A stretch of DNA of 64,000 nt, taken from assembly GCA_030649345.1 (NCBI GenBank), contig JAUSKK010000038.1, forward strand, positions 15,192-79,191, written 5' to 3'. Shown in pieces: positions 4,724 through 60,257 of the stretch. The notes beneath the pieces were generated by a model, which was not told where the DNA came from, ran no database searches, and saw nothing but the letters and a program-made list of their open reading frames with translations. The stretch is from Candidatus Iainarchaeum sp. Lineage in GTDB: Archaea; Iainarchaeota; Iainarchaeia; Iainarchaeales; 0-14-0-20-34-12. Every line of letters begins with the position of its first letter. The stretch's first letter is position 1. Both the position numbers and the translations under genes were made by a program.

Positions 4724-5842
4724 ATGATTCGAAACGAATTATTTAAATCAATTCAGCGGGTGGTTGTCAAAATTGGCACCAGCAGTATTTCGAATGACCA
4801 AGGAATTAATTTAGTTTTTTTGACTTCTTTAGCCAATCAAGTTAAAGAATTGCAGTCCAAAGGAGTTCAAGTCATTATTGTTTCTTCGGGTGCTATTGGT
4901 TCGGGCGCAAAAGTTTTGGGCTTAAAAGCTCCCATTCGTGTGATTGAATTACAGCAAGTAAGTGCTGCAGTAGGTCAGCCTAGATTAATGCAAGCCTATG
5001 AAAATGTTTTTTCTGGTTTGGATTTAAAAGTTGCCCAAATTTTGCTGACTTATGATGTGTTTGAAAATCGAAGAAAATATTTAAATTTACGAAATGCATT
5101 GAATGAATTATTGAAACTAAACGTGGTTCCCATTATTAACGAAAACGATGTTGTGGCTGTAGATGAAATTGGCCCAACTTTTACGGACAATGACAAACTC
5201 AGTGCTTTGGTTGCTGCGAAATTAAATGCTCAATTGTTGGTGAATTTAACCAGTACGGAAGGAGTGTATTCTCAAAATCCAAATCTTTCCAAAAATAAAA
5301 ATTTTGAAGTTATAAAAGTGGTTGACAAAATTACTCCTGAACTGGAAAAAATTGCAGGCAAACCATCCATGCATGGCACTGGCGGAATGTATTCTAAAGT
5401 TCAAGCAGCCAAAATTTGCATGAAGGCCGGAATTTTTTTAGTAATTGCCAGTTCCAAGCAGCCCAATGTTTTAAATCGAATTGTTTCCGGTGAAGAATTG
5501 GGCACATTATTTTTGCCGAAAGAAATTTTATCCAATAAACAACGATGGATTGCGTTTGGTCAGCCGAAAGGAATTTTGTTAGTGGATAATGGAGCTATGC
5601 TGGCAGTTCAAAAAGACAAAAGCTTATTGGCCATTGGTGTGCGGGAAATTATTGGTTCGTTTGAAAAAAACGAAATTGTTTCTTTGGTTTGCTCTGGAAA
5701 AGAATTTGCCCGAGGTTTAACTAATTTTTCTTCATCTGAATTAAAAAAAATCAAAGGATTGAATTCAGATCAAGCCGCAATGCAATTAGGAAAAAAGGTT
5801 AAATCTGTGGTTTTAGCCGAAAATCTTATTAAAATGAATTAA
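4724..5842 (+). CDS. proB: Glutamate 5-kinase with C-terminal PUA domain
   Basis: 372 aa. Amino-acid-kinase-fold N-terminus (VVKIGTSSIS; VIIVSSGAIGSG) and a C-terminal PUA-like segment. Same strand as proA. Confidence 0.85.
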   Translation: MIRNELFKSIQRVVVKIGTSSISNDQGINLVFLTSLANQVKELQSKGVQVIIVSSGAIGSGAKVLGLKAPIRVIELQQVSAAVGQPRLMQAYENVFSGLDLKVAQILLTYDVFENRRKYLNLRNALNELLKLNVVPIINENDVVAVDEIGPTFTDNDKLSALVAAKLNAQLLVNLTSTEGVYSQNPNLSKNKNFEVIKVVDKITPELEKIAGKPSMHGTGGMYSKVQAAKICMKAGIFLVIASSKQPNVLNRIVSGEELGTLFLPKEILSNKQRWIAFGQPKGILLVDNGAMLAVQKDKSLLAIGVREIIGSFEKNEIVSLVCSGKEFARGLTNFSSSELKKIKGLNSDQAAMQLGKKVKSVVLAENLIKMN

Positions 5843-7348: not shown

Positions 7349-8032
7349 CTATTTAGGTCGGTTTCTCATTCGATTAAATCGTCCAGCAATTTTTCCAAAC
7401 TTTTTTAATTGTTGTCTGCTGGCTTGAACCAGTTTTAGGTGGATATCTTTTTTTGGGTGTATTTTTTTTCTATCGGGATTGCGAAATACTTGTAGCCATA
7501 AACTTTCTCGGGCAGTTCCATGTAAATTATAAATTGAAAAAGGAGATTGTGTAGATCCTACAAAGTCAAGTTTATGCCATGCACCTTGAGTGTATGTCCA
7601 TCCTGGTTTTTGGCTGTGATTGTTAAAACTAAATGCCCCGCTAAATATGCGGGCTTTTCCTACTGTTTGAAAATATTGTTTTAGTTTTGTTATGCCCAAT
7701 CCTGTTTCACTGTATTCATCTAAAAATAATATTCTATTTTTTGGGTTTTGAAATTCAGCATATGTTTTAGGTCGTTTTTCTCGAATAGCTTGTTCTAAAG
7801 CTTCTATATTTTCAGAATCGTGAGTAATGTTTCGGGTTTTTCCCAATGCAATTATTTTTGGCATTTCTTCTATTGGATAACCACTGGCTTTCCAAGCATT
7901 TGCAATCAAATGTCTTAGAGGAACAGCAGCTGTTCCTTTTAGTGCAATTACATTAATTTTGTTTTCCTGAATCCAATTAATTAATCGAATGGATGTTAAA
8001 ATAATTTCTCGTTCAGAAGCAGATCTCGGCAT
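7349..8032 (-). CDS. Phosphoribosyltransferase (PRTase type I)-like protein
   Basis: 227 aa. PRPP-binding-like motif NRILFLDEYSETGLGI and an upstream VIALKGTAAVPLRHLIA segment. Basic C-terminal tail. Confidence 0.5.
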   Translation of the reverse strand: MPRSASEREIILTSIRLINWIQENKINVIALKGTAAVPLRHLIANAWKASGYPIEEMPKIIALGKTRNITHDSENIEALEQAIREKRPKTYAEFQNPKNRILFLDEYSETGLGITKLKQYFQTVGKARIFSGAFSFNNHSQKPGWTYTQGAWHKLDFVGSTQSPFSIYNLHGTARESLWLQVFRNPDRKKIHPKKDIHLKLVQASRQQLKKFGKIAGRFNRMRNRPK

Positions 8033-8035
8033 AAG

Positions 8036-8716
8036 TTATTTTTGTTTTCTTAAATAGTTTTCAATTTCTTCTTCGCTGACTGCGCATCCTGCGTATTTGA
8101 CTGCATACAATGCTGCTCGTGCAGCCTTGATGGTGTTGGTAATGGTTTCATTCAGTAAACCTTCTTCGTAGGCTAAAGCAATTAATTCAGTTGAACGAAT
8201 AATAATGGGCTTGGGAATAATTTGATTTAATTCATTTAAAATAGTAGAGTTTACTTGGATATTGATTCCTTGTCTTCGTTGAATTAATTCACGTAATTCA
8301 TTGGGTGTTTCAATTAACATTCTGGTAGTTTTTTCATCCATGCATAAAATTCTGGAATTGACTTGCTGCATTAATGCTAAAGATTCTGCTTCTCCTTTGT
8401 GCAAGATTTGAATAAATTTTCCATTGCTGTGAAATAATTTTCCACATAAAGAAACCATTCGTTCTTCCAGTGCTTTGGATTCAGAATTCATTTGAGCTAC
8501 TTGAATCCATTTTTCATTTAATCCTTTTTGAATTCTTTCTGAACTTAACTGAAATCGTTTAATGGTGCTGGGAGTTTCAATGCTTTCTTCGGCAACTCCT
8601 TGGCTCATTATAAATTGAATTCCTAATTTTTTGTTGAGTGCACGAAACACATCAAATAAGCAGGTTTCGCTTAAAGAAATTAAAGCGCTTGAATCCAATA
8701 CAATAATAGTGTTCAT
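8036..8716 (-). CDS. PIN-domain protein (putative nuclease)
   Basis: 226 aa. N-terminal IIVLDSSALISL with downstream acidic residues (EAESLAL, CMDEKT), consistent with a PIN fold. 3-nt gap to the downstream gene. Confidence 0.55.
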   Translation of the reverse strand: MNTIIVLDSSALISLSETCLFDVFRALNKKLGIQFIMSQGVAEESIETPSTIKRFQLSSERIQKGLNEKWIQVAQMNSESKALEERMVSLCGKLFHSNGKFIQILHKGEAESLALMQQVNSRILCMDEKTTRMLIETPNELRELIQRRQGINIQVNSTILNELNQIIPKPIIIRSTELIALAYEEGLLNETITNTIKAARAALYAVKYAGCAVSEEEIENYLRKQK

Positions 8717-8721
8717 GTGCT

Positions 8722-9399
8722 TTACCTTTTAATGATTGTTTTTGATTTTTTATATTTTTTTCGTTCTTTATACCATTGCCGTGCATTTTCCAGTTTTTGA
8801 TTTCGAATTTTATGACTTTCTTGTCTTGCATAGGCTCTTGGGTATTTTTGCTGAAAAGGATTTGTGACAGAATGTCCTTTGGCTGTAAGCGCTTTAACTA
8901 CTTCGGGTGCATGATTTTCTCCTATGACTGCATAGTCTAAATTTAGTTTTGGAATTCGTTCAATCATGGCTTTTTCTTGGGTTCCGACTGAAAATAACTC
9001 TCTTTCTCCGAAAACTGTTTGTTCAACATCTTCGCGTGATTTTGCTTTTTTGATTCTAGCCTTCAAAAATTGTGATTCTCGTTCAAAAATATTTTTTGGC
9101 AAAATAGGAACAATTTCTATGCCTCCTTGTTTGAGTTCCACGGCCAATTGATGCCAGTAGCTGGCAATAGTTGGGTGTATTCCGAATTCAAGTTTTCCAT
9201 GTTCTGTGTTCAATGCTTTTGCAGCAGGCACTTTTCCTTTCATTATTTGTTCAAATTCTTTTTCTGCTAATTCAATTCCTACTCTTGTTCCAGGTTTTAG
9301 TCTTCCTTGCGTTATTTCTTTTTGAAAAAAAGCAAACAATTGCGGTAAGGTTTGCGGGTGATGAATAACGCCAAGAATTCGCGTTGGCTTTGAAGTCAT
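8722..9399 (-). CDS. Hypothetical protein
   Basis: 225-aa ORF tightly packed with its neighbours (5-nt gap to the PIN gene, 4-nt overlap with the upstream ORF). Basic C-terminus. Confidence 0.45.
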   Translation of the reverse strand: MTSKPTRILGVIHHPQTLPQLFAFFQKEITQGRLKPGTRVGIELAEKEFEQIMKGKVPAAKALNTEHGKLEFGIHPTIASYWHQLAVELKQGGIEIVPILPKNIFERESQFLKARIKKAKSREDVEQTVFGERELFSVGTQEKAMIERIPKLNLDYAVIGENHAPEVVKALTAKGHSVTNPFQQKYPRAYARQESHKIRNQKLENARQWYKERKKYKKSKTIIKR

Positions 9400-10321: not shown

Positions 10322-10388
10322 TGAGTATTGGCAGTAGGGTCGAATGAAATGAGACCCTACAACAGCCTACTCTCGCGGCTAGGCGAGA

Positions 10389-10404
10389 TTGGGGACGCCG
10401 AGAT
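10389..10404. repeat. 16-nt direct repeat (TTGGGGACGCCGAGAT) of the tRNA candidate's 3' end (second copy at 10621–10636)
   Basis: Exact 16-nt match read directly from the sequence, 232 bp from the tRNA 3' end. The two copies are in direct orientation. Confidence 0.6.
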
Positions 10405-10621
10405 CCAAACCGCGGGAACCAAGGTTCCAGCAGAAAACTGTGGTTTTCTGTGGCCCATAAAACCTGTTGGTTTTATTTGGCCCTCAGTTTTAGGTTAATC
10501 CTGATCCCTCCTTATTTCGAGGTTAAATCGGCGGACCAATTTTTGATAACAACATAAAATCAATGATTTTATGTGTCCCGCAAAATCTTTGATTTTGCTT
10601 GGAAACTTTTTTTAAAAGTTT

Positions 10622-10893
10622 TGGGGACGCCGAGATTTGAACTCGGACCAAAAGGTAACTTCTCAGATCAATTTTTTGTTTTGTTTGCCTTTTTTTATAT
10701 CATCGTTCTTTTCAGAACTCATCACGCAACAGTTTTTTTCAGTACTGTGCTGCTGTAGTGAAACGAAAGCACAATTAAAACGAACACGTTTTAATGTGCA
10801 TTAAACCATTATGGTTTAATTGCAGCACGTTCGACCAACCGGAACCCCGGTTGAGCTGGAGCCTATTGCGCTGCCAGGTTACGCCACGTCCCC
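10622..10893 (-). tRNA. Candidate intron-containing tRNA with anticodon CCA (Trp). 5' exon 10856–10893, 199-nt intron 10657–10855, 3' exon 10622–10656. CCA is not encoded.
   Basis: On the minus strand: 7-bp acceptor stem GGGGACG/CGTCCCC, U8, D-stem GCGU/GCGC, D-loop AACCUGGCA, anticodon-stem 5' strand AUAGG, loop CUCCAG, T-arm CCGAG-UUCAAAU-CUCGG and discriminator A. The anticodon-stem 3' strand CCUUU lies 199 nt away and leaves one U·U mismatch. No BHB splice motif was verified. Confidence 0.35.
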
Positions 10894-11010
10894 ATATCAT
10901 ACCCTTCGGGTACGATACCTCCTGTTGTAGAATCTTCGCTATTGCTCGATTCTACGTTAGGATACCTCCTTTGTTGAGATAATTATGTGTGTTAGAATTT
11001 GTTTTAAATC

Positions 11011-11775: not shown

Positions 11776-12459
11776 TTATTTGTTTTTCATTTGTTTGGCT
11801 ATAGTGTACAATGAATTGAGTTCTTTTTCAGTTAAAGGAACCCGATTCAGTAAAGCTTTAAGTGTTTCCAGTACTCCTTGAGGGTTATCAATTTGTTTTG
11901 CTTTTTTTATTTTTTCAACAAATTGATTGAATACATTTTTTCGATTTTGGGATGTAGCTGTCTTTAAAACAGTTTTTTTGGGTTCTGCAAAAAATGCATA
12001 CAAGGTTACAGCCACGGCATGGCTGATGTTTAAAGAAGCATATTTGTGTGAAGTTGGAATGGTCATAATTAAATCGCATTGTTCGACTTCGGAGTTGGTT
12101 AATCCAGAGCTTTCTCTTCCAAACACCAATCCTAGTTTTAGGTTTTTGGAATTAAATTTTTTTACAATTTGTTTTAACGGCAAAGCTGTTCGGGTAAATT
12201 TTTTTTCAGAAGTAATTCGAGCAGTAGCTGCAATTGAATAATCCAATCCCTGCAATGCTTTTTTGAGATTTTGGGTTGTTTTGCTTTTTTTTAATACGTC
12301 TTGTGCATGCATGGCTCGGCTAATGGCTTTGATATTATTTTTATTGGCTTTGGGTTTGACTAAAAATAATTCAGTGACTCCAAAATTTTTGCAAACCCGG
12401 GCAATGAGTCCTAAATTTTCTTCGTATTCTGGTTCAACCAATATAATCCGCAAGCTCAT
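11776..12459 (-). CDS. SpoU-class (TrmH/TrmJ-like) RNA 2'-O-methyltransferase
   Basis: 227 aa. N-terminus ILVEPEYEENLGLIARVCKNFGVTELFLVKP matches the SPOUT methyltransferase signature. Confidence 0.7.
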   Translation of the reverse strand: MSLRIILVEPEYEENLGLIARVCKNFGVTELFLVKPKANKNNIKAISRAMHAQDVLKKSKTTQNLKKALQGLDYSIAATARITSEKKFTRTALPLKQIVKKFNSKNLKLGLVFGRESSGLTNSEVEQCDLIMTIPTSHKYASLNISHAVAVTLYAFFAEPKKTVLKTATSQNRKNVFNQFVEKIKKAKQIDNPQGVLETLKALLNRVPLTEKELNSLYTIAKQMKNK

Positions 12460-49785: not shown

Positions 49786-52700
49786 ATGTTGAATGAAAAA
49801 GCTAGAACACAATTGACTTTGGCATTGCTTTTGTTAGTTGTAACTGGCGTTTCGTATTCTGTGTATGCTCCGCCGGGTGACAATGGAAATGCTCAGGATA
49901 ATTTAAAAGATACTGATTTAATTTTTTCAACTGAAGAATTAAGTTCTTTGGAATTAAAACAGCAAGCTTTGCCTTATTTGAATTCTTTACTGAACACTGC
50001 AATTGAAGACGATCGCGCAAAATTACTGGAAGCCAGAGATGCTGTTGAAGCTAGTTTGAATTCAAATTACTGGAAACGTTCCGGTGTTTTAGTTGTAGAC
50101 AATCAAGTTTTTGAATTAAGTCAAACTGCAGCCAATCGAATTAAGACTTTATATAATCGTGAAAGTTCTGATTTGAATTCTGAACAATTATTGCTGGCAA
50201 TATCGCGCATAGTTCAAGCAGATCAGCAAGCAGCTGAATATACTTTGTTTTCTTTGCAGGAAATTTTTCCTCAATTAACAGATGAAAATTTGATTGCAAC
50301 TATTCAGCCCATGCTTTCCAGTGCAGAAAATGCCTACGATCAAGCATTGCATCAGTTAAGTATTGGAAATTCGCCGAATGCAATTGTACACTTTCAAGAA
50401 TCTTGGGATAATAGTTATCGTGCTGTTTTGTTGACTGATGAATTTACTATTCCGGAAGTAATCATTACAGAACCTTTGGCTGGCTGGTATACTCGTTTGG
50501 CCAGTATTTTGGTTTCAGGTACTCTTTGGGATGTTCAATTGGAAACCATTCCAAGTGTTGTGGTTGCAGTGAATGATTTGAATTATGTTTTCCCGCAATC
50601 CAATGGATTGTTTTCTGGAATTATTTCTTTAACTGAAGGAAGCAATGCAATTGTAGTTTACGGAATTGACCAATATCAAAATATTGGAACTGCAGAAACT
50701 CAGGTAACTTTGGATACTATAGCTCCAGAAATTTTTGTAGCCGGTGTAGAAAATAATTCATTTAATCCAGTTTCTGTTACTCCGGTAATTGAGTTTTCAG
50801 ATTTGCATTTAAATGAAACCAGAATTGAATTAAACAATCAAATATTTATTTCAGGAACTGAAGTCTTAGAAGAAAAAGAATATTCTTTGGTTGTTTATGC
50901 TAATGATTTGGCTGGAAATGAACAAACTCAGACTGTAAACTTTGTAATTGATCGCACAGTTCCAGAAATTGCTTTAATCAATCCCTACAATGGTCAGTTT
51001 GTGCACAATACACTAAATGTTCAAGGTACTGTGAGCGATACTTATTTAGATTACTATATATGGAAGATTGACGGAGTTGAAGTTGCACGCAATCAATCAA
51101 ATTATTCTTGGAATACTCAAAATTTTGAAGACGGAGAGCATACAGTAACTTTATTTGCAATTGATAATGCAGGAAACTCCAGTGAAACAACTGCTGCTGT
51201 TACAGTCGATAATACTTTGCCTGTGATTGAAGTTTCCGGCGTTTCAGACAATGAATTTTATAACTCTAACATTACTCCAGTAATTTTAGTTACTGAATTG
51301 AATTTAGAAATTCAGTTGTTTACTTTGAATGATTTAGAATTTGTTTCAGGCACAGAAGTCAGTGCAGAAAATGAATACGATTTGAATGTAACTGTAATTG
51401 ATAAAGCAGGAAATCGTGCTGACCAAATAGTTTCATTTACGATTGACAAGACTGCTCCATTTGCTCAAATTGTAAATCCTTTGGAAAATTCCTTTGTGCA
51501 TGAAATTGTTTCAATTCAAACTTTTGCAAGTGATTTGTATTTGGATACTCAAACTTTATTTTTGGATGGAACAGAAGTTTCTTCGAACAATTCTTTTGAA
51601 TGGAATACTTTAGATTATTCTGACGGCGAACATAGTATTGATTGGGTTGTAATAGATCAAGCAGGGAATTCTACAACAAGCAGTGTTTTGGTTACTGTAG
51701 ACAATACACTTCCTGTTGTTTTGGTTTCAGGAATTCAAGAAAATGTTTTTTATAATTCAGATCGTGTTCCCTTGGTTGAAGTTCAAGATGTAAATCCAGA
51801 TCAATTGAATGTATTTTTGAATACTCAGCCTTTTGAATTAAGTAATTCCATTTCTTCAGATAACGAATATTCTTTTACTGCAATTGCTGTGGATCGTGCT
51901 GGAAATATTGGGCAGACTACTGTAAACTTTGTTTTGGATAAAACTGTTCCAGTAGTGGAAATTGTTTCTCCTGTAGAAAATTCTTTTTTGCGCCAAACTG
52001 TTGGAATCGAAGGACTTACAGAAGACAAGTATTTGAGTACAGTTGAATTATTGGTGGATGGAACTCTAGTTTCAAATAATTCTTTTTTTGAATGGAATAC
52101 TTTGAACTATTCAGAAGGCTTGCATTCCATTGAATTAATTGCTTTAGATTTAGCTGGCAATCAATCTAGTCAAACAATTCAAGTGACTGTAGATAATGTT
52201 TTGCCGGAATTGTTGGTTCAAAATTTAACTGAAAATGGTTTGTATTTGAATTCTGATTTTACTCCCAAATTTGAATTAACTGAAACTAACCCTAGTGTAA
52301 CCAGTTCTTTGTTGAATGATTTAGAATACAATTTGGAAACTGTAAGTGTAGATGGAGATTATGTTTTGGAAATTACTCACACAGACTTAGCTGGAAACTC
52401 CAATTCTTTGACTCGTACATTTGTAATGGATCAAACTTATCCAGTAACTTCAATTGATTCTCCAACTTCTGGTTCGTTTGTTCGCGGTATTGTTTTAGTT
52501 CAAGCTCAAGCCAGTGACTTGCATTTGAGCCTAACTCAACTATTGATTGACAATGTTTTGGTTTCTTCTGAAAATGAATTCGAATGGAATACTTTAAATT
52601 ACGCTGAGGGTGCTCATAAAGTTGAATGGATTGCTTTAGATTTAGCTGGAAATCAAACCAACAGTGTTTCGTATATTGTAGTAGATAATACTGTTCCAGT

Positions 52701-55700
52701 GATTGCTATTGTTGGAGTAACTGAAGGAACTTTTTATAATTCGAATCAAACTCCATTGGTTGTAGTTCATGAAACCAATCCTAAATTAACTCAAGCATTT
52801 TTGAATAACGAGCTCTTTGAATTAGATTCAACTATTGTTGAAGAAGGCGAATATACTTTAGAAGTTCAAACAGAAGACTTAGCTGGAAATACTGCTGTTC
52901 AATCTGTTTCGTTTGTAATTGACAAAACTGCGCCTGTAACTTCCATTGATTCTCCAAGTTCTGGTTCGTTTGTTTCAGGCAATGTTTCAATTACTGCCAG
53001 TGCCAGTGACTTGTATTCTTTAACTCATACTTTGTCTATAGATGGCCAAGTTTTGACTGAAAATAATTTTATGACTTGGAATACTTTGAATTATTCTGAT
53101 GGCTTTCATGCAATTGAATGGCATGTGCAAGATTTAGCAGGAAATGAAACCAATTTGACCTATGCTGTTACTGTTGACAACACAGTTCCAGTAATTGAAT
53201 TTTTGAATTTAGAAGAAGGAACTTATTACAATCAGTTTTTGGTTCCAGAAGTTAAAATTACTGAAACTAATTTAGATTCAGTGCAGTATTTCTTAAACAA
53301 TCAATCTTATATTCCTGGAACTGTAATTCAAGAAAATAAAGAATATGTTTTAGAAGTTCAAGCTTTGGATTTAGCCGGCAATCAATCGATTGAAAGTGTT
53401 TCATTTATTGTAGATACTTTAGCTCCAGTTGTGGAATTAAGTGTTCCGAGTGCCAGTAGTTTTGTTCGCGGGGTAGTGGAAATTTCGGGTTCAGTTTCTG
53501 ATTTGTATTTGGATTCAACCAATTTATTAATTGACAATTCTTGGGTTACTTCTGATTTACCATTTAACTGGAATACTTTAGATTATTCAGATGGAAATCA
53601 TGTAGTTACTTTTACTGGAACTGATTTGGCTGGAAACTCAACTACAGTTTCTGAAATCTTTACTGTAGATAATACTGTTCCAGTGTTTGTTTATGTTTTG
53701 CCGAATCAACCGTATACTCGCTGGGATGTATTGGTTGATTTTGTTTTAACTGAAATCAATAAAGGTGTTACTGAAGCTTTTTTGAATAATGAATCTTTTG
53801 ATTGGCGTTCAGTAATTTCAGCTGAAGGAGATTACAATTTAGTTTTACGTCATACAGATAAAGCTGGAAATATTGCAGAAGTTTTGCGTACATTTACAAT
53901 TGATAAAACCAAGCCTTGGGCTGAAATTTTAAGTCCAGAAAATAATTCGTTTGTTAAAGGAATTGTTCGCGTTTCTGCAGATGCGAATGACTTGCATGGT
54001 ATTGTGTACCGTTTGGATGTAGATCAACGTGTTTTAACTACTGGCAAATCCATTGACTGGAATACTTTTGTTGAAGGCGATGGCTTGCATGTTTTGAAAT
54101 GGTTTGTAATTGATGTCGCAGCCAATGATATTTTAGTTGAACATACTGTTACTGTAGACAATACTTTGCCTGAAATTCGTTTCACCAATATTCAAAACGG
54201 AATACACTACAATTCTTCAATTATTCCTGAAATTGAAATTGTGGAATTAAATTTGCAGAGCGTACATTATTTTTTGAACAATCAACCGTATGTTTTAGGT
54301 ACTCCAATTTCTCAAGATAATGACTATGTTTTGGAAATTCAGGTTACAGATAATGCTGGAAATTATGTTACGCGATTTATTAATTTTGTGATTGACACTA
54401 CTGCGCCTGAAACAGTGTTAACTGTTCCAAACACAAATGATTTTGTAAAAGGCATGGTTTCAGTTACTGGTGAAACTTCAGATTTGTATTTAGACACCAC
54501 TACTTTGTATATTGACAGTTTGCCAGTTGCGTATAGTTTTCCGTTTGAATGGAATACTGTAAATTATTCAGACGGAACACATACTGTAAGTTATACGGCT
54601 GTAGATTTGGCTGGCAATTCAACTACTGTAAGTACAACAGTTAATGTGGACAATACTTTGCCGGCTGTAACCTATGTTACTCCAATTGTAAATTCGTATG
54701 TTCGCCAAACAGTTGAAATTAATGCAACAATTGTTGAAACAAATTTGGAATTATTGGAATTATTAATTGACACTGAATTGATTAGTAATTCTTTGCCGTT
54801 TGAATTAAATACTTTAAATTATTCAGATGGAGAACATCAATTGTCTGTAACTTTAACAGACCAAGCTGGCAATTATTATAGAACGGATTGGACTGTATTT
54901 GTAGACAATACTGTTCCTGAATCGACTGTTTCTGAATTAATCGAGAATCCTACTTTGGTTGAACCTTTTTATTCTTTAACTGGAACTATTTTAGACTCAA
55001 GTAGTATTGAATATGTTCTAGTAAATGATCAAATGGTTTCTGTATTGGATGGAGATTTTTCATTTGATTTTAATGTAATCGAAGGTCGAAATACAATTAC
55101 TGTAACTGCAGTTGATTTAGCTGGCAATCAAGTTGTTTTCTTGAAAGAAAGATTGGTAGACAAAGATTTGTTGCCTGATTTTTATGAATTATCTGTCTTG
55201 CAGTCTGATCCGTTGAATTCAGATTCTGATTTTGGAACAACTGAAGCTGATGAATCAAATAACGAAATTTTGGATGATGCTGAAGATTTAGACCAAGATG
55301 GTTTGCCTACATTTGCAGAATATTTTTATGGCTCTAATCCATTTTCAGATAATTCGGACGCAGATTCTTTGGATGATTTCTTTGAGTTAACTATGTCAGG
55401 CACTGATCCAGGAATTGCTGACTCAGATGAAGATGGCGTCTTAGATTCTGATGAAGACTTTGATGGAGATAGTTTAACGAATGCACAAGAAGAACAACTG
55501 CATGCCAATCCATACTTATTGGATACTGATTCAGATGGCTTAGATGATTCTGTTGAATCTAGTTTAGGCACAAATCCAATTGAAGTGGATTCAGATCATG
55601 ATGGTTTATTGGATGAAAGTGAAATTTATTTGGAAAGCAATCCTTTGGTGTCAGATTCAGATAATGATGGTGTCTTAGATTCGTTGGAATATTATTCACA

Positions 55701-58464
55701 GACTTTTTCAGACTTGAATGGAATTTTGCAAGTTACTATTGAAGGTCAAGGAGACTTGCGATACACTACTCAAGTTGTAGAAACACCTGAACCACATGCA
55801 GCATTGTTGGAATTACCGGATATTGTTACAGGCTACTATGATATCTCTACGGATTCAAATTTTTTATCTGCTGTAGTGCGTTTGCATTATGCTGAAAGTG
55901 ACTTGAATGGTTTGTTGGAATCTGAAATTCGATTATTTTACTACGATGAAGACTTGAATATTCTTGTAGAAGAATCCGTGCAAGGAGTGAATGAATCTGA
56001 AAATTATGTTTGGGCTCAAACTACCCACTTTAGTTATCGTGCTGCTGGTTCCAGTAAAAATTGGAAAAGTCCAACCAGTTATCCTTGGAATCGCGATCCA
56101 ATTGTTTATTCTTCTGGAGAAACTTTGCGTTTGAAAGCCCGCGTTTATAATATTGGAATTGCTCCAGCTTCAAATGTTCCTGTGAGTTTTTATTCTGGAG
56201 ATCCAAGTTCTGGTGGTGTTTTACTTGGAACAGTTACTGTAAATAATATTCCTTCTGGTGGAAATGCTGAAGCAATTTTGACTTGGGTTGCCAGTTTGGA
56301 TGTAGATTTCTTGTATGTTGTAGTGGATGCAGGCAATGTTATTGCAGAAGAATCTGAAACCGATAATAAAGCATTCCGTCAGTTTATCACAGAATTTAAC
56401 GGCGATTCTGATGGTGATGGTTTAAGTGATTATGAAGAAATTAATGGAATGCGAACACAATTCAGTAATTTATTTATTAAGACAGATCCTTACGAAGAAG
56501 ATACTGATGGCGATGGCTTAACTGATAATGTTGAAATGAATTTGGGTGGAGGAACTAATGCAAATCAACAGTATCTTACTAAAAGTAATCCATCTAAATT
56601 GGATTCGGATAATGATGGTTTAACGGATTACGAAGAACTTGCTGGCCGGCAATTACGAATTACAAACAATCACTCAGATGCAGTTGCTTTATTGTCTGAT
56701 TTGGAATTTGGAAATAGTTTAAGTGATAATGTGGACACTGGCACAGTTTATTCTGATGCATACATGGTTGACACCGATGCAGATGGGTTAACAGATTATC
56801 GCGAATTTGAATGGGGTTCAAACCCCCGCTGGGTTGACTCAGATAGTGATGGACTAAAAGATGGTGTTGACGATGACCCTTCAATGTATGATGTTACTCC
56901 TCCAAGCGTGCAAATTGTTTCAGTTTATCAAGATGAATGGTTTGGATACAAAATTAAATATGTTGTGACTGCTACAGATTCATCTGGAATAATTGCTCAT
57001 TGGATAATTCATGATGGCATACAAGTTGATTTTGCAACTTATGCTAATCGAAAAAATCCTGTGACTATTTCAGGTACCTTGGATGTCAGCTGGTTAAGTG
57101 AAAGTTTTACTGGCACTGTGGCTAACGTAAAAGTGGAGGATTATTCCGGTAACCAATTGATTAAAGACTTGTATTCTCAAGATGGTGTTGTCACTTCAGC
57201 CGCTGTTGCTGCTGTGAAAGAAATTAATCGATTGTATTCTCAAGTGGATCCTTTTAGTGGGGGAATACAATCTGGAATTGCAATTAGTTTAATCCATCAA
57301 GGAGAAGATATTGTAGGCATAGTTAAAAATCCAGGCAGTATTTTGGATGGTATTCGTGGTTTAGGCACTGCAGTAGATGAGCAAGGTATTGGTGTGGTTT
57401 CTACTTTATATAATTCATTTAAGCAACGCATTGATGAATCGCATAATTCTTTGAATCCATTTAAATCCAGTGACTGGAGATATTCTTCTTATCAAGGTGG
57501 TTTTTACACTGGTTATGTGGGTGGCTTAATTATTACTTCCGTGGTAGGCGCTGGTGTTGTATCCAAAGGATTGAGTGTCATTAAAGCTGGAAGTTTAGTT
57601 TCTAAAATTTCAAAAATTAGCATTGTAAAGAGCGCGCTGAGTATTGTAAAACAAACTCCACGAATGAAACTGTTATTGGGCGCAGCCGGAACTGTAGCTG
57701 CTACCTATTGGTTGAAAGAACAGTTCCCTGATATTGATGCATTGCAAACTTTGTCCGATTACCAAATAGGTTTTGCCACCATGGCATTAACTGCTGAAGC
57801 AGGTCCTGCCTTGGGTCGCATTGCAGGAGTTACAGCAGCTCAACAAAAACGCTTAGTTGTATTTCTTTCCCGAAATTCTAAATTTACTGTAGAAAATCGT
57901 GTGGCTTTCTTAAAGCCAGCATCAATTGACAACGGCGTAGCTAAAATATTCAGTGACTTGTCTGATGACTTACAGGATAATATTTTTATAGCATCTCACG
58001 GACAAGGCATTCCTTCATTGGAACGTAGTGTAATTGTTTCTCGCACAAATCGATTGAAAAATGTCCCCGGAGTTGACGATGTTGTAAGGAATCTTAATAA
58101 ACGTAATTGGCATGGTCATTATTTTGAATTAGATGCCGCGGATACTTTGCGAACGCGGGGTCATAATTTAATTGAATTATCTAAAAAATACCCTTTTGGT
58201 GACGGTGAACTGGATGTGTATTTCCAGCACTTAAATGGAAAGAAAATTGTTGCTGAAATAAAATCTATTCCGGCTGATAAATGGCTTACAAATAAAGGAA
58301 ACTTAGATCCGCGTATTGATCGACAATTGGATAGATATGCGCGACTTGTACAAACTGGCGATGCTCAAGAAGCATGGGTTATTTCAGAAAACACTATTTC
58401 TCCTGCTGCCAGAACGCTTATTGAAAACAAAGGAATTATTATAAAATATATTGGAGAGATTTAA
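49786..58464 (+). CDS. Giant (2892 aa) secreted surface protein. Tandem Ig-like repeat units and Ca-binding DxDxDG (thrombospondin-type-3-like) repeats precede a C-terminal PD-(D/E)xK nuclease-like domain. Candidate polymorphic toxin / contact-dependent effector.
   Basis: N-terminal signal/TM. About nine ~163-aa repeats starting VTVDNT[LV]PV and containing WNTL[ND]YSDGxH. Two blocks of D-S-D-x-D-G-[LV]-x-D repeats. C-terminal ~190 aa carry HGHYFELDAAD…GDGELDVYFQ…GKKIVAEIKS (D…ExK). A hydrophobic stretch precedes the C-terminal domain. Confidence 0.7.
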   Translation: MLNEKARTQLTLALLLLVVTGVSYSVYAPPGDNGNAQDNLKDTDLIFSTEELSSLELKQQALPYLNSLLNTAIEDDRAKLLEARDAVEASLNSNYWKRSGVLVVDNQVFELSQTAANRIKTLYNRESSDLNSEQLLLAISRIVQADQQAAEYTLFSLQEIFPQLTDENLIATIQPMLSSAENAYDQALHQLSIGNSPNAIVHFQESWDNSYRAVLLTDEFTIPEVIITEPLAGWYTRLASILVSGTLWDVQLETIPSVVVAVNDLNYVFPQSNGLFSGIISLTEGSNAIVVYGIDQYQNIGTAETQVTLDTIAPEIFVAGVENNSFNPVSVTPVIEFSDLHLNETRIELNNQIFISGTEVLEEKEYSLVVYANDLAGNEQTQTVNFVIDRTVPEIALINPYNGQFVHNTLNVQGTVSDTYLDYYIWKIDGVEVARNQSNYSWNTQNFEDGEHTVTLFAIDNAGNSSETTAAVTVDNTLPVIEVSGVSDNEFYNSNITPVILVTELNLEIQLFTLNDLEFVSGTEVSAENEYDLNVTVIDKAGNRADQIVSFTIDKTAPFAQIVNPLENSFVHEIVSIQTFASDLYLDTQTLFLDGTEVSSNNSFEWNTLDYSDGEHSIDWVVIDQAGNSTTSSVLVTVDNTLPVVLVSGIQENVFYNSDRVPLVEVQDVNPDQLNVFLNTQPFELSNSISSDNEYSFTAIAVDRAGNIGQTTVNFVLDKTVPVVEIVSPVENSFLRQTVGIEGLTEDKYLSTVELLVDGTLVSNNSFFEWNTLNYSEGLHSIELIALDLAGNQSSQTIQVTVDNVLPELLVQNLTENGLYLNSDFTPKFELTETNPSVTSSLLNDLEYNLETVSVDGDYVLEITHTDLAGNSNSLTRTFVMDQTYPVTSIDSPTSGSFVRGIVLVQAQASDLHLSLTQLLIDNVLVSSENEFEWNTLNYAEGAHKVEWIALDLAGNQTNSVSYIVVDNTVPVIAIVGVTEGTFYNSNQTPLVVVHETNPKLTQAFLNNELFELDSTIVEEGEYTLEVQTEDLAGNTAVQSVSFVIDKTAPVTSIDSPSSGSFVSGNVSITASASDLYSLTHTLSIDGQVLTENNFMTWNTLNYSDGFHAIEWHVQDLAGNETNLTYAVTVDNTVPVIEFLNLEEGTYYNQFLVPEVKITETNLDSVQYFLNNQSYIPGTVIQENKEYVLEVQALDLAGNQSIESVSFIVDTLAPVVELSVPSASSFVRGVVEISGSVSDLYLDSTNLLIDNSWVTSDLPFNWNTLDYSDGNHVVTFTGTDLAGNSTTVSEIFTVDNTVPVFVYVLPNQPYTRWDVLVDFVLTEINKGVTEAFLNNESFDWRSVISAEGDYNLVLRHTDKAGNIAEVLRTFTIDKTKPWAEILSPENNSFVKGIVRVSADANDLHGIVYRLDVDQRVLTTGKSIDWNTFVEGDGLHVLKWFVIDVAANDILVEHTVTVDNTLPEIRFTNIQNGIHYNSSIIPEIEIVELNLQSVHYFLNNQPYVLGTPISQDNDYVLEIQVTDNAGNYVTRFINFVIDTTAPETVLTVPNTNDFVKGMVSVTGETSDLYLDTTTLYIDSLPVAYSFPFEWNTVNYSDGTHTVSYTAVDLAGNSTTVSTTVNVDNTLPAVTYVTPIVNSYVRQTVEINATIVETNLELLELLIDTELISNSLPFELNTLNYSDGEHQLSVTLTDQAGNYYRTDWTVFVDNTVPESTVSELIENPTLVEPFYSLTGTILDSSSIEYVLVNDQMVSVLDGDFSFDFNVIEGRNTITVTAVDLAGNQVVFLKERLVDKDLLPDFYELSVLQSDPLNSDSDFGTTEADESNNEILDDAEDLDQDGLPTFAEYFYGSNPFSDNSDADSLDDFFELTMSGTDPGIADSDEDGVLDSDEDFDGDSLTNAQEEQLHANPYLLDTDSDGLDDSVESSLGTNPIEVDSDHDGLLDESEIYLESNPLVSDSDNDGVLDSLEYYSQTFSDLNGILQVTIEGQGDLRYTTQVVETPEPHAALLELPDIVTGYYDISTDSNFLSAVVRLHYAESDLNGLLESEIRLFYYDEDLNILVEESVQGVNESENYVWAQTTHFSYRAAGSSKNWKSPTSYPWNRDPIVYSSGETLRLKARVYNIGIAPASNVPVSFYSGDPSSGGVLLGTVTVNNIPSGGNAEAILTWVASLDVDFLYVVVDAGNVIAEESETDNKAFRQFITEFNGDSDGDGLSDYEEINGMRTQFSNLFIKTDPYEEDTDGDGLTDNVEMNLGGGTNANQQYLTKSNPSKLDSDNDGLTDYEELAGRQLRITNNHSDAVALLSDLEFGNSLSDNVDTGTVYSDAYMVDTDADGLTDYREFEWGSNPRWVDSDSDGLKDGVDDDPSMYDVTPPSVQIVSVYQDEWFGYKIKYVVTATDSSGIIAHWIIHDGIQVDFATYANRKNPVTISGTLDVSWLSESFTGTVANVKVEDYSGNQLIKDLYSQDGVVTSAAVAAVKEINRLYSQVDPFSGGIQSGIAISLIHQGEDIVGIVKNPGSILDGIRGLGTAVDEQGIGVVSTLYNSFKQRIDESHNSLNPFKSSDWRYSSYQGGFYTGYVGGLIITSVVGAGVVSKGLSVIKAGSLVSKISKISIVKSALSIVKQTPRMKLLLGAAGTVAATYWLKEQFPDIDALQTLSDYQIGFATMALTAEAGPALGRIAGVTAAQQKRLVVFLSRNSKFTVENRVAFLKPASIDNGVAKIFSDLSDDLQDNIFIASHGQGIPSLERSVIVSRTNRLKNVPGVDDVVRNLNKRNWHGHYFELDAADTLRTRGHNLIELSKKYPFGDGELDVYFQHLNGKKIVAEIKSIPADKWLTNKGNLDPRIDRQLDRYARLVQTGDAQEAWVISENTISPAARTLIENKGIIIKYIGEI
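50700..54950 (+). repeat. Nucleotide-level tandem repeats (about 490-bp period, about 9 copies) encoding the Ig-like repeat units of the giant gene
   Basis: The periodic recurrence of gtagacaatac[tg]… / tggaatact… segments mirrors the protein repeats. Confidence 0.55.
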
Positions 58465-59994: not shown

Positions 59995-60032
59995 AATGTC
60001 TAAGCTTCCGATTATTTCCGCAAACGAAACGC

Positions 60033-60257
60033 TTGTTTCGTTGCGCATTAAAACGTGTTCGTTTTAATTGCGGAAAAGATTTATTGAAAATTTTATTAAA
60101 AAAAGGTTATTATATTCGAAACCAGAAAGGAAGTCATGTTCATTTGCGTCATTCTTTTTTGTTGCCTGTGACTGTTCCCAATCATAAAGTAATTGCACTA
60201 GGTACACTTAAAGCTATAATGAAAACTACTGGTTTAACTGAAAAAGATTTTGAGTAA
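60033..60257 (+). CDS. hicA: HicA-family mRNA-interferase toxin (start uncertain: TTG 60033 or TTG 60084)
   Basis: LLKILLKKGYYIRNQKGSHVHLRH…VTVPNHKVIALGTLKAIMKTTGL matches the HicA/YcfA signature (KGSH…H…VP.H). Confidence 0.55.
   Translation: MFRCALKRVRFNCGKDLLKILLKKGYYIRNQKGSHVHLRHSFLLPVTVPNHKVIALGTLKAIMKTTGLTEKDFE

What the first reader, a model, noticed from the sequence alone, without database searches (positions are those of the whole stretch)
10622..10893. tRNA-like gene (anticodon CCA) split by a ~199-nt intron that contains box C/D-like motifs
Seen in sequence (minus strand): a clean acceptor stem, U8, D-arm and T-arm (CCGAG-UUCAAAU-CUCGG). However, the anticodon-stem 3' strand (CCUUU) is 199 nt downstream of CUCCAG, implying an intron after position 37. 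Within the putative intron are GTGATGA (C-box-like, RUGAUGA) and two CTGA (D/D'-like) motifs. Established knowledge: archaeal tRNA-Trp genes frequently carry introns, and in some lineages the intron encodes a box C/D guide RNA that methylates the tRNA itself. Long introns are also common in small-genome archaea. Caveats: one U·U mismatch in the anticodon stem, no bulge-helix-bulge splice motif verified by eye, and the short C/D motifs could occur by chance.
Basis: partly seen in the sequence, partly recalled or inferred. Interest (0 to 1): 0.5.

Follow-up and report, generated by a model that had tools for sequence, protein, structure and literature searches.

The report
Tryptophan tRNA gene with giant intron
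This is a real tryptophan tRNA gene of a tiny DPANN archaeon, interrupted by a 199-base intron that is about three times the usual size for this tRNA, and related archaea share the oversized intron, which standard tRNA finders miss.

Summary
Minus strand 10893..10622 encodes a 73-nt tRNA-Trp(CCA) split after G37 by a 199-nt intron. Removing the intron in silico gives a clean cloverleaf. The splice junctions form an archaeal bulge-helix-bulge motif (CUCC/GAAG helix, AG^C and UU^A bulges), and the same motif occurs in other DPANN tRNA-Trp introns. The host is a 'Candidatus Diapherotrites' MAG. Six syntenic orthologues were recovered. One has an identical 5' exon and the same first intron hairpin. 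Three complete ones have introns of 160, 187 and 194 nt. The long intron is therefore a clade trait, beyond the published 11-129 nt range.

The box C/D reading is only partly right. The intron has no terminal C/D pair and no canonical spacing. In relatives the adjacent guide places C34 at the fifth-nucleotide position. Here that complementarity is lost. The guide instead matches G22-G30 (9 bp, P about 0.01-0.02).

The extra length includes a two-hairpin module that also interrupts a hicA gene 49 kb away. tmRNA, group I intron and tRNA-Lys readings are rejected.

The parts
10856..10893 (-). tRNA-Trp 5' exon (positions 1-37): acceptor 5' strand, D arm, anticodon stem 5' strand, loop CUCCAG
   Evidence: Sequence. 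ARAGORN cloverleaf after in-silico splicing. 38/38 identical in orthologue L124.
10657..10855 (-). 199-nt intron at canonical position 37/38
   Evidence: Orthologous introns of 160, 187 and 194 nt in L139, L129 and L137.
10622..10656 (-). tRNA-Trp 3' exon (A38 to A73): anticodon stem 3' strand CCUUU, 4-nt variable loop, T arm, acceptor 3' strand, discriminator A. CCA is not encoded.
   Evidence: All 14 complete tRNA-Trp genes tabulated have a 4-nt variable loop and end in A73.
10657..10662 (-). 3' strand of the bulge-helix-bulge motif: GAAG pairs with C32-C35 (one C34.A mismatch), followed by UU of the 3' bulge UU^A38
   Evidence: The same CUCC/GAAG helix occurs in L035, L040, L058, L095, L101 and L137. 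L122, L129 and L139 have CUCC/GGAG.
10835..10854 (-). Intron hairpin P1 (UCAACCGG-GGUU-CCGGUUGG), immediately after the 5' splice site
   Evidence: Fold z = -2.9. The stem is conserved and the loop changed (GGAA) in L124. Its lowest base pairs compete with the 3-bp h' helix of the BHB.
10747..10828 (-). Three-way-junction domain: closing stem GUGCUGC/GCAGCAC around two hairpins
   Evidence: Fold -33 kcal/mol, z = -4.6, 0 of 200 shuffles as stable.
10770..10825 (-). Two-hairpin module shared with the insert in hicA at 60024..60075 (25-nt identical core at 10772..10796)
   Evidence: BLAST 25/25, E = 4e-8. Alignment A1. Both copies fold the same way, and the base of hairpin 2 shows an A-U to G-C compensatory change.
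10723..10734 (-). Guide-like 12-mer AACUGUUGCGUG upstream of the AUGA box. It is homologous in position to the Cm34 guide of relatives but complementary to G22-G30 of this tRNA.
   Evidence: 9-bp duplex (7 Watson-Crick, 2 G.U) in the same register as relatives, with C25 opposite the fifth nucleotide. P = 0.009 (random 12-mers) to 0.024 (shuffled guide).
10700..10722 (-).
   Evidence: Same module with covarying hairpins in L129, L137, L139, L128 and L013. A covariance model built from those relatives alone puts its best hit of the whole window at 10682..10736. The motif occurs in 7.5% of shuffled introns.
10688..10693 (-). AAAAGG, a weak complement to C39-U44, at the place where relatives carry an 8-9-nt complement to the 3' anticodon-stem strand
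   Evidence: Only 6 nt in an A-rich context and not followed by a D-like box, so this is weak.
10663..10666 (-). CUGA directly 5' of the BHB strand. It has no C-box partner at the intron's 5' end.
   Evidence: Micrarchaeota introns have a C-like box AUGAUUA at the 5' splice site. This intron starts CUCAACC.
10389..10435 (-). Decayed second copy of the intron's 3' end plus the 3' exon (16/16 identical core AUCUCGGCGUCCCCAA), about 232 nt downstream of the real 3' end
   Evidence: Local alignment score 43 against shuffles of 18.6 +/- 3.3, maximum 33.
10894..11010 (-). 117-nt spacer or leader. It keeps the conserved GATTTAAAACAAATTC (a candidate TATA box) next to the upstream gene, and carries about 78 nt that L124 (40-nt spacer) lacks.
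   Evidence: The promoter assignment is an inference from the conserved TTTAAAA motif.

Best explanation
The locus is the functional tRNA-Trp(CCA) gene of a DPANN ('Candidatus Diapherotrites') archaeon.

How it most likely works: the gene is transcribed as a precursor of about 270 nt or more. C32-C35 pair with GAAG at the 3' end of the intron. Together with the anticodon stem and a short intron-intron helix, this forms a bulge-helix-bulge motif whose two 3-nt bulges (AG^C and UU^A) hold the splice sites. The archaeal splicing endonuclease cuts there, a ligase joins the exons into a 73-nt tRNA, and CCA is added afterwards.

The 199-nt intron descends from the box C/D-bearing intron typical of archaeal tRNA-Trp. 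In this clade only one internal K-turn-like module is kept (NNGA - hairpin - RAU-GA). In relatives a guide next to that module places C34 at the methylation position. In this gene the guide no longer matches C34, and the Watson-Crick pair next to the K-turn is an A.A mismatch. The module is therefore most likely vestigial, or possibly retargeted.

The extra length comes from lineage-specific structured insertions: hairpin P1, a three-way junction containing a two-hairpin repeat, and A-rich spacers.

Shown: the exons, the intron position, the BHB motif, the orthologues, the conserved module and the repeat. Inferred: splicing by EndA, L7Ae/fibrillarin binding, loss of Cm34 guidance, and origin of the extra length by insertion.
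For: - tRNA identity: after in-silico splicing ARAGORN calls a 73-nt Trp(CCA) with a 7-bp acceptor stem and A73.
- Host: archaeal gene content (type-I ProRS, archaeal TyrRS, DRG-like GTPase, TrmJ) and an identical neighbouring protein named by NCBI as from a Candidatus Diapherotrites MAG.
- BHB at 37/38: central helix 3/4 pairs, outer helix 3 bp plus A27-U43 beyond the U.U mismatch, inner helix 3 bp. Only 2 of 480 neighbouring site/length combinations score as well.
- The same CUCC/GAAG or CUCC/GGAG helix and the same bulges occur in 14 of 14 tRNA-Trp genes tabulated.
- Orthology: L124 has a 38/38 identical 5' exon, but only 66% identity over the first 50 nt of the intron, with hairpin P1 kept. 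L129, L137 and L139 have the same gene order and are called Trp(CCA), with introns of 187, 194 and 160 nt. L128 and L140 are truncated by contig ends.
- Selection on exons: exon identity is 0.74-0.93 against 0.25-0.68 for introns.
- Module: covarying hairpins, for example GCUCU/AGAGC versus GUUCU/AGAAC. A model built from relatives only ranks 10682..10736 first in 128 kb searched.
- Guide register: five relatives place C34 opposite the fifth nucleotide upstream of the box. The window does not.
- An independent Logan assembly reproduces the 5' exon-intron junction.
- Literature: tRNA-Trp introns nest box C/D RNAs that guide Cm34 and Um39 (PMC4090602, PMC7714728, PMC11408192).
Against: - There are no expression data, so splicing is inferred.
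- The central BHB helix has a C34.A mismatch. The inner helix is only 3 bp and competes with hairpin P1, so the motif is relaxed, not strict.
- The anticodon stem has a U28.U42 mismatch.
- The covariance-model hit is not significant for the whole window (E = 0.39). The generic GA-hairpin-NNNGA pattern occurs in 7.5% of shuffled introns.
- No EndA, RtcB, L7Ae, Nop5 or fibrillarin gene was seen in the parts of the window that were scanned. This is uninformative for the whole genome.
- The guide's 9-bp match to G22-G30 (P about 0.01-0.02) argues against a purely decayed module.
Confidence: 0.8

Rival explanations
1. The intron carries an active, retargeted half-mer box C/D guide. L7Ae binds the AUGA-hairpin-GAUGA K-turn, Nop5-fibrillarin assembles on it, and the guide CUGUUGCGU pairs with G22-G30 of the same tRNA. 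This would direct 2'-O-methylation of C25 instead of C34, or act as a folding chaperone for the D and anticodon arms.
For: The guide's best duplex with the mature tRNA is 9 bp (7 Watson-Crick). It starts at position 2 from the box, exactly as in five relatives, and puts C25 opposite the fifth nucleotide. P = 0.009 for random 12-mers and 0.024 for shuffled guides. The target sequence GCGCAAUAG is specific to this lineage's exon, so guide and target would have changed together. The module position is conserved.
Against: The probability is modest, and several registers and targets were examined. The pair next to the K-turn is A.A here, where relatives have C-G or A-U. I know of no 2'-O-methylation at position 25 of archaeal tRNAs (from memory, not searched). 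The closest orthologue, L124, lacks this part of the intron, so conservation of the match could not be tested.
Confidence: 0.12
2. The gene is a decaying pseudogene, and a different tRNA-Trp gene serves the cell.
For: U28.U42 mismatch in the anticodon stem. C.A mismatch in the BHB helix. A locus full of small insertions and a decayed duplicate of the 3' exon. Only 64 kb of the genome was seen.
Against: The 5' exon is 38/38 identical, including U28, in a lineage whose flanking protein is 64% identical and whose intron start is 66% identical. The acceptor, D and T arms are perfect. The C.A mismatch is the common state in other DPANN tRNA-Trp genes. Gene order is conserved across the clade.
Confidence: 0.04
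3. The 275-nt RNA is a tmRNA: tRNA-like ends enclosing a tag-coding region.
For: Rfam RF00023 aligns end to end over 10619..10893, at 12.7 bits and E = 0.006 in a 701-nt search.
Against: The score is far below the gathering score of 47. ARAGORN's tmRNA mode finds nothing. Pair 3-70 is G-C, not the G.U alanine identity pair, and complete D and anticodon stems are present. The host is an archaeon, and tmRNA is bacterial (established knowledge). Relative L137's tRNA-Trp gives the same weak tmRNA hit at 14.7 bits.
Confidence: 0.01
4. The insert is a self-splicing group I intron of the kind found in bacterial tRNA anticodon loops.
For: The size (about 200 nt) and the anticodon-loop location resemble small group I introns. 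Such introns were recently reported in tRNA genes of ultrasmall Patescibacteria (PMC13011429).
Against: No Rfam group I intron match at E up to 10. The host is archaeal. A BHB motif is present and conserved, and relatives' introns grade down to 57-67-nt BHB introns with the same ends.
Confidence: 0.01
5. ARAGORN's own call is right: tRNA-Lys(CUU) with an 8-bp acceptor stem and a 200-nt intron inside the anticodon.
For: This is the direct output of ARAGORN with introns allowed.
Against: Those splice sites have no BHB: central helix 1/4 pairs and outer helix 0 bp. The reading needs an 8-bp acceptor stem and a weaker anticodon stem. The 37/38 solution gives the loop CUCCAGA shared by all comparators. 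ARAGORN itself calls Trp for orthologues L129, L137 and L139.
Confidence: 0.01

Closest known systems
Box C/D-containing intron of euryarchaeal pre-tRNA-Trp (Haloferax volcanii, 103 nt; guides Cm34 and Um39)
   Same: Same tRNA, same 37/38 position and the same BHB-dependent splicing logic. A K-turn-forming GA/GA box pair lies inside the intron. Relatives of this gene (L123, L128, L129, L137, L139) keep a guide that puts C34 at the fifth-nucleotide position.
   Different: The intron is about twice as long. It has no terminal C/D pair and no 12-nt box spacing. Only one internal module is kept, with non-consensus boxes (AUGA, cGAUGA). The C34 complementarity is lost and the N39 complement is reduced to 6 nt. 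About 125 nt of unrelated structured RNA sits upstream of the module.
tRNA-Trp introns of Micrarchaeota and other DPANN (L035, L058, L095, L101, L040; 40-67 nt)
   Same: Nearly the same D arm. The same CUCC/GAAG central BHB helix with the C34.A mismatch. A GCG-(A)UGAUGA box is present.
   Different: Those introns are compact. They start with a C-like box at the splice site and have an AUCUGGAA guide to C34 directly after the internal box. Rfam's tRNA model tolerates introns of this size: it found L122 (57 nt) and L013 (67 nt), the two short-intron genes scanned. It misses the long ones.
Mobile or repeated BHB introns of Thermoproteales tRNA genes, and BHB introns in archaeal mRNAs (cbf5; the 5' UTR of HVO_1309)
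   Same: A sequence module inside this intron recurs elsewhere in the genome, inside a protein-coding gene (hicA). There its ends can be drawn as a BHB-like motif, and removing it restores the reading frame.
   Different: Here the shared module is only part of the tRNA intron, not the whole intron. In hicA a bulge-free 9-bp helix competes with the BHB drawing. Mobility and splicing are not shown.

Membership tests
Archaeal tRNA-Trp | Cloverleaf with 7-bp acceptor stem, D and T arms, and anticodon CCA in a 7-nt loop | tested here: met
   ARAGORN on the spliced sequence gives a 73-nt tRNA-Trp(CCA). There is one U28.U42 mismatch in the anticodon stem.
Archaeal tRNA-Trp | Archaeal-type identity features: discriminator A73, G1-C72, G2-C71, loop CUCCAGA | tested here: met
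   Read directly. All 14 complete tRNA-Trp genes tabulated share the loop and A73. That these are TrpRS identity elements is established knowledge and was not tested.
Archaeal tRNA-Trp | Conservation of the exons in orthologues | tested here: met
   38/38 with L124. Exon identity 0.74-0.81 to L129, L137 and L139, against 0.50-0.59 for introns.
Archaeal BHB (splicing-endonuclease) tRNA intron | Two 3-nt bulges carrying the splice sites, separated by a 4-bp helix and flanked by helices (hBHBh') | tested here: met
   CUCC/GAAG (3/4 pairs, C34.A mismatch), bulges AG^C and UU^A, outer helix formed by the anticodon stem, inner helix 3 bp. It is relaxed, not strict. The same variant occurs in six other tRNA-Trp genes tabulated, including syntenic L137.
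Archaeal BHB (splicing-endonuclease) tRNA intron | Canonical position between nucleotides 37 and 38 | tested here: met
Archaeal BHB (splicing-endonuclease) tRNA intron | Actual cleavage by EndA and exon ligation | not testable with these tools
   Needs RNA-seq or an in-vitro assay.
Box C/D guide sRNA (as in the tRNA-Trp intron of Euryarchaeota) | Terminal box C (RUGAUGA) near the 5' end and box D (CUGA) near the 3' end, forming a K-turn closed by a terminal stem | tested here: not met
   The intron starts CUCAACC. The only RUGAUGA is at intron positions 131-137. The 3' CUGA (190-193) has no partner or closing stem.
Box C/D guide sRNA (as in the tRNA-Trp intron of Euryarchaeota) | Internal D'/C' pair forming a K-loop or K-turn | tested here: met
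   AUGA - GUUCU GAAA AGAAC - GAU-GA. Homologous modules with covarying stems occur in five relatives and are supported by model R1. Caveat: the adjacent pair is A.A.
Box C/D guide sRNA (as in the tRNA-Trp intron of Euryarchaeota) | Guide of about 9 nt or more upstream of D or D', with the target nucleotide (C34 or N39) opposite the fifth nucleotide | tested here: not met
   For C34 only 4 of 7 positions pair, and they are discontinuous. For N39 there is a 6-nt match with no D-like box. Relatives meet the C34 rule. The alternative 9-bp match to G22-G30 is inconclusive.
Box C/D guide sRNA (as in the tRNA-Trp intron of Euryarchaeota) | About 12-nt spacing between boxes | tested here: not met
   3 nt between GUGAUGA and the next CUGA. 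33 nt between GAUGA and the last CUGA.
Box C/D guide sRNA (as in the tRNA-Trp intron of Euryarchaeota) | Binding of L7Ae, Nop5 and fibrillarin | not testable with these tools
   None of these genes was found in the ORFs scanned. The rest of the genome was not available.
tmRNA (RF00023) | Score above the family threshold, G3.U70 pair, no anticodon stem, tag reading frame, bacterial host | tested here: not met
   12.7 bits against a gathering score of 47. G3-C70, with full D and anticodon arms. No tmRNA by ARAGORN. Archaeal host. The same pseudo-hit appears in L137.
Group I intron (RF00028) | Match to the conserved catalytic core | tested here: not met
   No hit at E up to 10 in the sensitive local Rfam scan.

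The most novel reading that the evidence does not exclude
The long intron is a platform, not junk.

(a) Its K-turn module may be a working half-mer guide that has been retargeted within the same tRNA, from C34 to the D-stem/26 region (C25).

(b) The two-hairpin module it shares with the 52-nt insert in hicA may be a small mobile element that the splicing endonuclease removes. In that case the hicA toxin mRNA would be interrupted by a BHB intron and would only be translatable after splicing.

Either reading would extend archaeal endonuclease/guide-RNA biology in DPANN beyond tRNA-Trp Cm34/Um39.
Probability: 0.12. Interest if true: 0.7.

Novelty: new variant of a known kind. Interest (0 to 1): 0.42.

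Why it matters
Three reasons.

1. Annotation. Default ARAGORN and the Rfam tRNA model miss this gene and all four complete orthologues whose introns are 107 nt or longer, while the Rfam model finds the 57-nt and 67-nt versions. The only tRNA for the single Trp codon can therefore look 'missing' from DPANN genomes. This fits the published remark that incomplete tRNA sets in DPANN point to undetected disrupted genes (PMC5829648).

2. Size range. It extends the documented range of archaeal endonuclease-spliced tRNA introns (11-129 nt; tRNA-Trp median 65 nt; PMC4090602) to 160-199 nt, as a conserved trait of one clade.

3. Evolution of the guide. The set gives a natural series: compact double-guide C/D introns, then single-module long introns with an intact Cm34 guide, then this gene, where the guide no longer matches C34. 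That series bears on why tRNA-Trp keeps its intron although the guide function is dispensable in Haloferax.

Tried and rejected
- Exact 28-nt 3'-exon scan of the genome collection: 0 hits, so the source species is not represented.
Most were tRNA-Pro, and they were useful only as a source of comparator tRNA-Trp introns.
- Metagenome scan with the 5' exon: only two genes, with shorter introns.
- Attempt to recover the 3' half of the closest orthologue (L124 lineage) through the downstream MazG-like gene: the homologues were not syntenic.
- Scan of viral contigs for the shared hairpin: 0 hits.
- No Rfam C/D, H/ACA or other family matched the window's intron or the relatives' introns. The weak H/ACA, Chlorobi-RRM and similar hits are chance-level (E of 0.2 or more, far below gathering scores).
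- The CUGA at 10715..10712 lies in the hairpin's stem and loop and is not a box.
- A simple BHB scorer does not rank the true tRNA site first, because many 4/4 helices arise by chance. The BHB argument therefore rests on position and comparison, not on that score alone.
- The original Clouet d'Orval 2001 paper was not available. The canonical box order and the fifth-nucleotide rule are cited from reviews and from established knowledge.
Full report
**1. The observation**

On the minus strand, 10893..10622 reads GGGGACG-U-G-GCGU-AACCUGGCA-GCGC-A-AUAGG-CUCCAG, then 199 nt, then A-CCUUU-UGGU-CCGAG-UUCAAAU-CUCGG-CGUCCCC-A. Default ARAGORN finds no tRNA or tmRNA in the 64-kb window, and Rfam at gathering thresholds finds nothing at all.

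With introns allowed, ARAGORN reports a tRNA at c[10621,10894]. After in-silico removal of the 199 nt between G37 and A38, it draws a clean 73-nt tRNA-Trp(CCA). Its only flaw is a U28.U42 mismatch.

ARAGORN's own intron placement gives Lys(CUU), with an 8-bp acceptor stem and the intron inside the anticodon. That placement has no splice-motif support: the central helix has 1 of 4 pairs and the outer helix 0 bp.

GTGATGA is present, and CTGA occurs three times, not twice. These counts are mildly enriched over dinucleotide shuffles: at least 3 CTGA in 2% of shuffles, at least 1 TGATGA in 5%, and at least 2 GATGA in 0.7%.

**2. The organism**

The flanking genes are archaeal housekeeping genes. 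They include type-I ProRS with the archaeal/eukaryotic C-terminal domain, archaeal TyrRS (PRK08560), a DRG-like GTPase, TrmJ, and purine and folate enzymes. G+C is about 35%.

The protein directly upstream of the tRNA is identical to an NCBI entry named 'MAG: hypothetical protein Q7S92_04810 [Candidatus Diapherotrites archaeon]', on an 86-kb contig. The lineage is thinly sampled:
- That protein has only one other homologue among 5.8 billion sequences.
- The nearest TrmJ is 52% identical.

An independent Logan assembly (L001) reproduces the upstream gene, the spacer, the 5' exon and the first 30 nt of the intron exactly.

**3. Splice motif**

With the 37/38 placement:
- C32-C35 (CUCC) pair with GAAG at intron positions N-5..N-2, with a C34.A mismatch.
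- The bulges are A36 G37^C and U U^A38.
- The anticodon stem supplies the outer helix.
- Intron positions 2-4 (UCA) pair with UGA to give a 3-bp inner helix.

Only 2 of 480 neighbouring combinations of site and length do as well.

The comparative evidence is stronger. All 14 complete tRNA-Trp genes tabulated share AG^N and NN^A bulges, a 4-nt variable loop, and a CUCC helix partner of GGAG, GAAG, AGAG, GGUG or GAGG. The exact GAAG variant recurs in L035, L040, L058, L095 and L101 and in the syntenic L137.

The motif is relaxed, not strict, and its inner helix competes with hairpin P1. DPANN splicing endonucleases are reported to carry inserts associated with broad substrate specificity (PMC5829648).

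**4. Orthologues**

| Locus | Source | Link to the window | tRNA-Trp intron |
|---|---|---|---|
| L124 | groundwater, 991 bp | upstream protein 64% identical | 5' exon 38/38 identical; broken after CUCCAG; contig ends 50 nt into the intron |
| L129 | JGI metagenome | TrmJ 47% identical, same gene order | 187 nt, Trp(CCA) |
| L137 | JGI metagenome | TrmJ 46% identical, same gene order | 194 nt, Trp(CCA) |
| L139 | JGI metagenome | TrmJ 43% identical, same gene order | 160 nt, Trp(CCA) |
| L128 | Logan | TrmJ 44% identical, same gene order | at least 180 nt; contig ends |
| L140 | Logan | TrmJ 43% identical, same gene order | interrupted 5' exon; contig ends |

The shared gene order is DRG GTPase - two ORFs - TrmJ - one ORF - tRNA - genes of about 187 and 225 aa.

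In L124 the intron opens with the same hairpin as the window, with identical stems and the loop changed from GGUU to GGAA. Identity over the first 50 nt of the intron is 66%.

Exons are much better conserved than introns: 0.74-0.93 against 0.25-0.68.

Two metagenomic genes with the same D arm have introns of 57 nt (L122) and 107 nt (L123). Comparators from the genome scan have introns of 40-67 nt.

Published values are 11-129 nt for archaeal tRNA introns, a median of 65 nt for tRNA-Trp, and 103 nt in Haloferax volcanii (PMC4090602, PMC7714728). The long intron is therefore a clade trait outside the documented range. I found no description of it in the literature available to me.

**5. What is inside the intron**

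From 5' to 3':
- (a) Hairpin P1, 10854..10835 (z = -2.9).
- (b) A three-way junction, 10828..10747: closing stem GUGCUGC/GCAGCAC around two hairpins (-33 kcal/mol, z = -4.6).
- (c) An A-rich linker.
- (d) AACUGUUGCGUG-AUGA-[GUUCU GAAA AGAAC]-GAU-GA, 10734..10700.
- (e) An A-rich stretch containing AAAAGG.
- (f) UUGAU-CUGA-GAAG-UU, which ends the intron.

The 3' 89 nt have no thermodynamic signal of their own (z = +0.1).

Relatives explain element (d). L129, L137, L139, L128 and L013 all carry [guide]-NNGA-[hairpin]-RAU-GA. The hairpins differ in sequence but always pair:
- GCUCCC/GGGAGC (L129)
- GCUC/GAGC (L137, L128)
- GCUCU/AGAGC (L139)
- GGC/GCC (L013)
- GUUCU/AGAAC (the window)

This has the topology of a K-turn, in which a D'-like NNGA and a C'-like GAUGA are joined by a stem. 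In all five relatives examined (L129, L128, L013, L122, L123), the 12 nt upstream of the box form a 7-8-bp duplex with G31-G37/A38. The duplex starts at position 2 from the box, so C34 lies opposite the fifth nucleotide. By established knowledge of box C/D guides, that is the position that gets 2'-O-methylated. It matches the Cm34 function described for tRNA-Trp introns (PMC4090602, PMC11408192).

A covariance model built from L129, L137, L139, L128 and L013 only ranks 10682..10736 first in the whole window on both strands, aligned full length (11.5 bits, E = 0.39 for 128 kb). That is not significant genome-wide. It is the top hit at exactly the predicted place, and scaling the E-value to the 199-nt intron gives about 6e-4.

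**6. Where the box C/D reading fails**

- There is no C box at the intron's 5' end. Micrarchaeota introns have AUGAUUA there.
- There is no terminal stem.
- Box spacings are 3 nt and 33 nt instead of about 12.
- The guide has lost C34 complementarity: CUGGAG[C/U]G in relatives has become CUGUUGCGUG.
- The complement to the 3' anticodon-stem strand is 8-9 nt in relatives but only AAAAGG here, with no D-like box after it.
- The pair next to the tandem G.A pairs is A.A here, where relatives have C-G or A-U.

I therefore file the intron as a derivative of the C/D-bearing tRNA-Trp intron, not as a box C/D sRNA.

One observation argues against simple decay. The altered guide forms a 9-bp duplex (7 Watson-Crick, 2 G.U) with G22-G30 of this tRNA, in the same register, with C25 opposite the fifth nucleotide. 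P is 0.009 against random 12-mers and 0.024 against shuffled guides. This is suggestive but unproven, because several targets and registers were examined.

**7. Where the extra length comes from**

A module of about 56 nt inside the three-way junction (10825..10770) recurs at 60018..60078 on the plus strand. The two copies share a 25/25 identical core, and a second hairpin carries an A-U to G-C compensatory change at its base.

At 60 kb the module sits in a 52-nt insert (60024..60075) that frame-shifts a hicA gene. Removing the insert gives MSKLPIISAKDLLKILLKKGYYIRNQKGSH..., which matches the HicA_toxin profile over all 58 positions (E = 2e-15).

The insert's ends can be drawn as a BHB-like motif: helix CCGC/GCGG, AA^A bulges on both sides, and a 4-bp outer helix. 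A bulge-free 9-bp helix competes with that drawing. A MITE-like insertion or a pseudogene are equally possible.

In L129 the 5' part of the intron is repeated just after the tRNA. Compared with L124, the window's locus also has an extra 78 nt or so in the leader. It also has a decayed copy of the intron's 3' end plus the 3' exon at 10435..10389 (score 43 against shuffles of 18.6 +/- 3.3). The locus has evidently accumulated small insertions and duplications, and the intron tolerates them.

**8. Rivals**

- **tmRNA.** The Rfam hit (12.7 bits) reflects shared tRNA-like ends. Pair 3-70 is G-C, full D and anticodon arms are present, ARAGORN finds no tmRNA, the host is archaeal, and L137's tRNA-Trp gives the same pseudo-hit.
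- **Group I intron.** No Rfam match, and the BHB is conserved.
- **Pseudogene.** Contradicted by exon conservation.
- **tRNA-Lys(CUU).** No BHB at those sites.

**9. Detection control**

Rfam's tRNA model finds the tRNA-Trp genes with 57-nt and 67-nt introns (L122, L013). It misses L123, L129, L137 and L139, just as it misses the window's gene. Long-intron tRNA-Trp genes can therefore go unannotated. tRNAscan-SE was not available to test.

**10. Verdict**

This is a real, selected tRNA-Trp(CCA) gene with a canonical-position BHB intron of 199 nt, and the long intron is a trait of the clade. The box C/D idea is right in ancestry but wrong in detail: one K-turn-like module survives and its Cm34 guide is gone. 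I rate it a new variant of a known kind, of moderate interest.

Noticed in passing
window 59996..60257 (+), insert 60024..60075: A hicA toxin gene is frame-shifted by a 52-nt insert that shares a two-hairpin module with the tRNA-Trp intron. Removing the insert restores a full-length HicA (PF07927 positions 1-58 of 58, E = 2e-15). The insert's ends can be drawn as a BHB-like motif (CCGC/GCGG helix, AA^A bulges). It could be an mRNA intron, a MITE-like insertion or a pseudogene.
   Followed up: partly
window 10389..10435 (-): A decayed duplicate of the tRNA-Trp intron's 3' end plus the 3' exon (16/16 identical core AUCUCGGCGUCCCCAA) lies about 232 nt downstream of the real gene, in a 300-nt ORF-free stretch (10322..10621). 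It looks like an att-type remnant of an integration event or a partial tandem duplication.
   Followed up: partly
window 10894..11010 (-): The spacer between the upstream gene and the tRNA is 117 nt, against 40 nt in orthologue L124. The extra 78 nt or so contain two copies of AGGAGGTATC and two hairpins (GUAGAAUC...GAUUCUAC and UACCC-GAA-GGGUA). The conserved GATTTAAAACAAATTC next to the upstream stop codon may be the promoter TATA box, which would imply a leader of about 100 nt here.
   Followed up: partly
window 11776..12459 (-), and L128, L129, L137, L139, L140: The tRNA 2'-O-methyltransferase gene trmJ (which methylates position 32 in characterised homologues) keeps a fixed position one gene away from tRNA-Trp across this DPANN clade. 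The ORF between them varies from 246 to about 556 aa and has no Pfam match.
   Followed up: no
window 7349..9399 (-): Three tandem paralogous ORFs of 225-227 aa with no Pfam match. Relatives have a single syntenic copy of about 225 aa, with a faint DUF3368 hit.
   Followed up: no
L129 8438..8490 and 8660..8710: In the orthologue with the 187-nt intron, the hairpin-rich 5' part of the intron (GGCCUUUUCUUUUUGGAAAAAAGAAAAGCC CGGGGAAAAGAAAAACC) is repeated immediately after the tRNA's 3' end (28 nt at 93% identity). This is another sign that the intron expansions are repeat insertions.
   Followed up: partly
L123 (metagenome contig Ga0335070_10393405), intron of 107 nt: This tRNA-Trp intron looks like a complete double-guide C/D RNA in circularly permuted order: [N39 guide]-UUGA-stem-GAUGA-[C34 guide]-CUGA-loop-AUGAUG. 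That order would only be canonical in a circularised intron.
   Followed up: partly
window 49786..58464 (+): A single 2892-aa ORF, by far the largest in the window. It was not analysed.
   Followed up: no
L139 8930..9016 and L076 about 5193..5279: tRNA-Pro(GGG) genes of DPANN relatives carry 12-nt introns that ARAGORN places at non-canonical positions in or just 3' of the anticodon loop (i(42,12) and i(40,12)).
   Followed up: no
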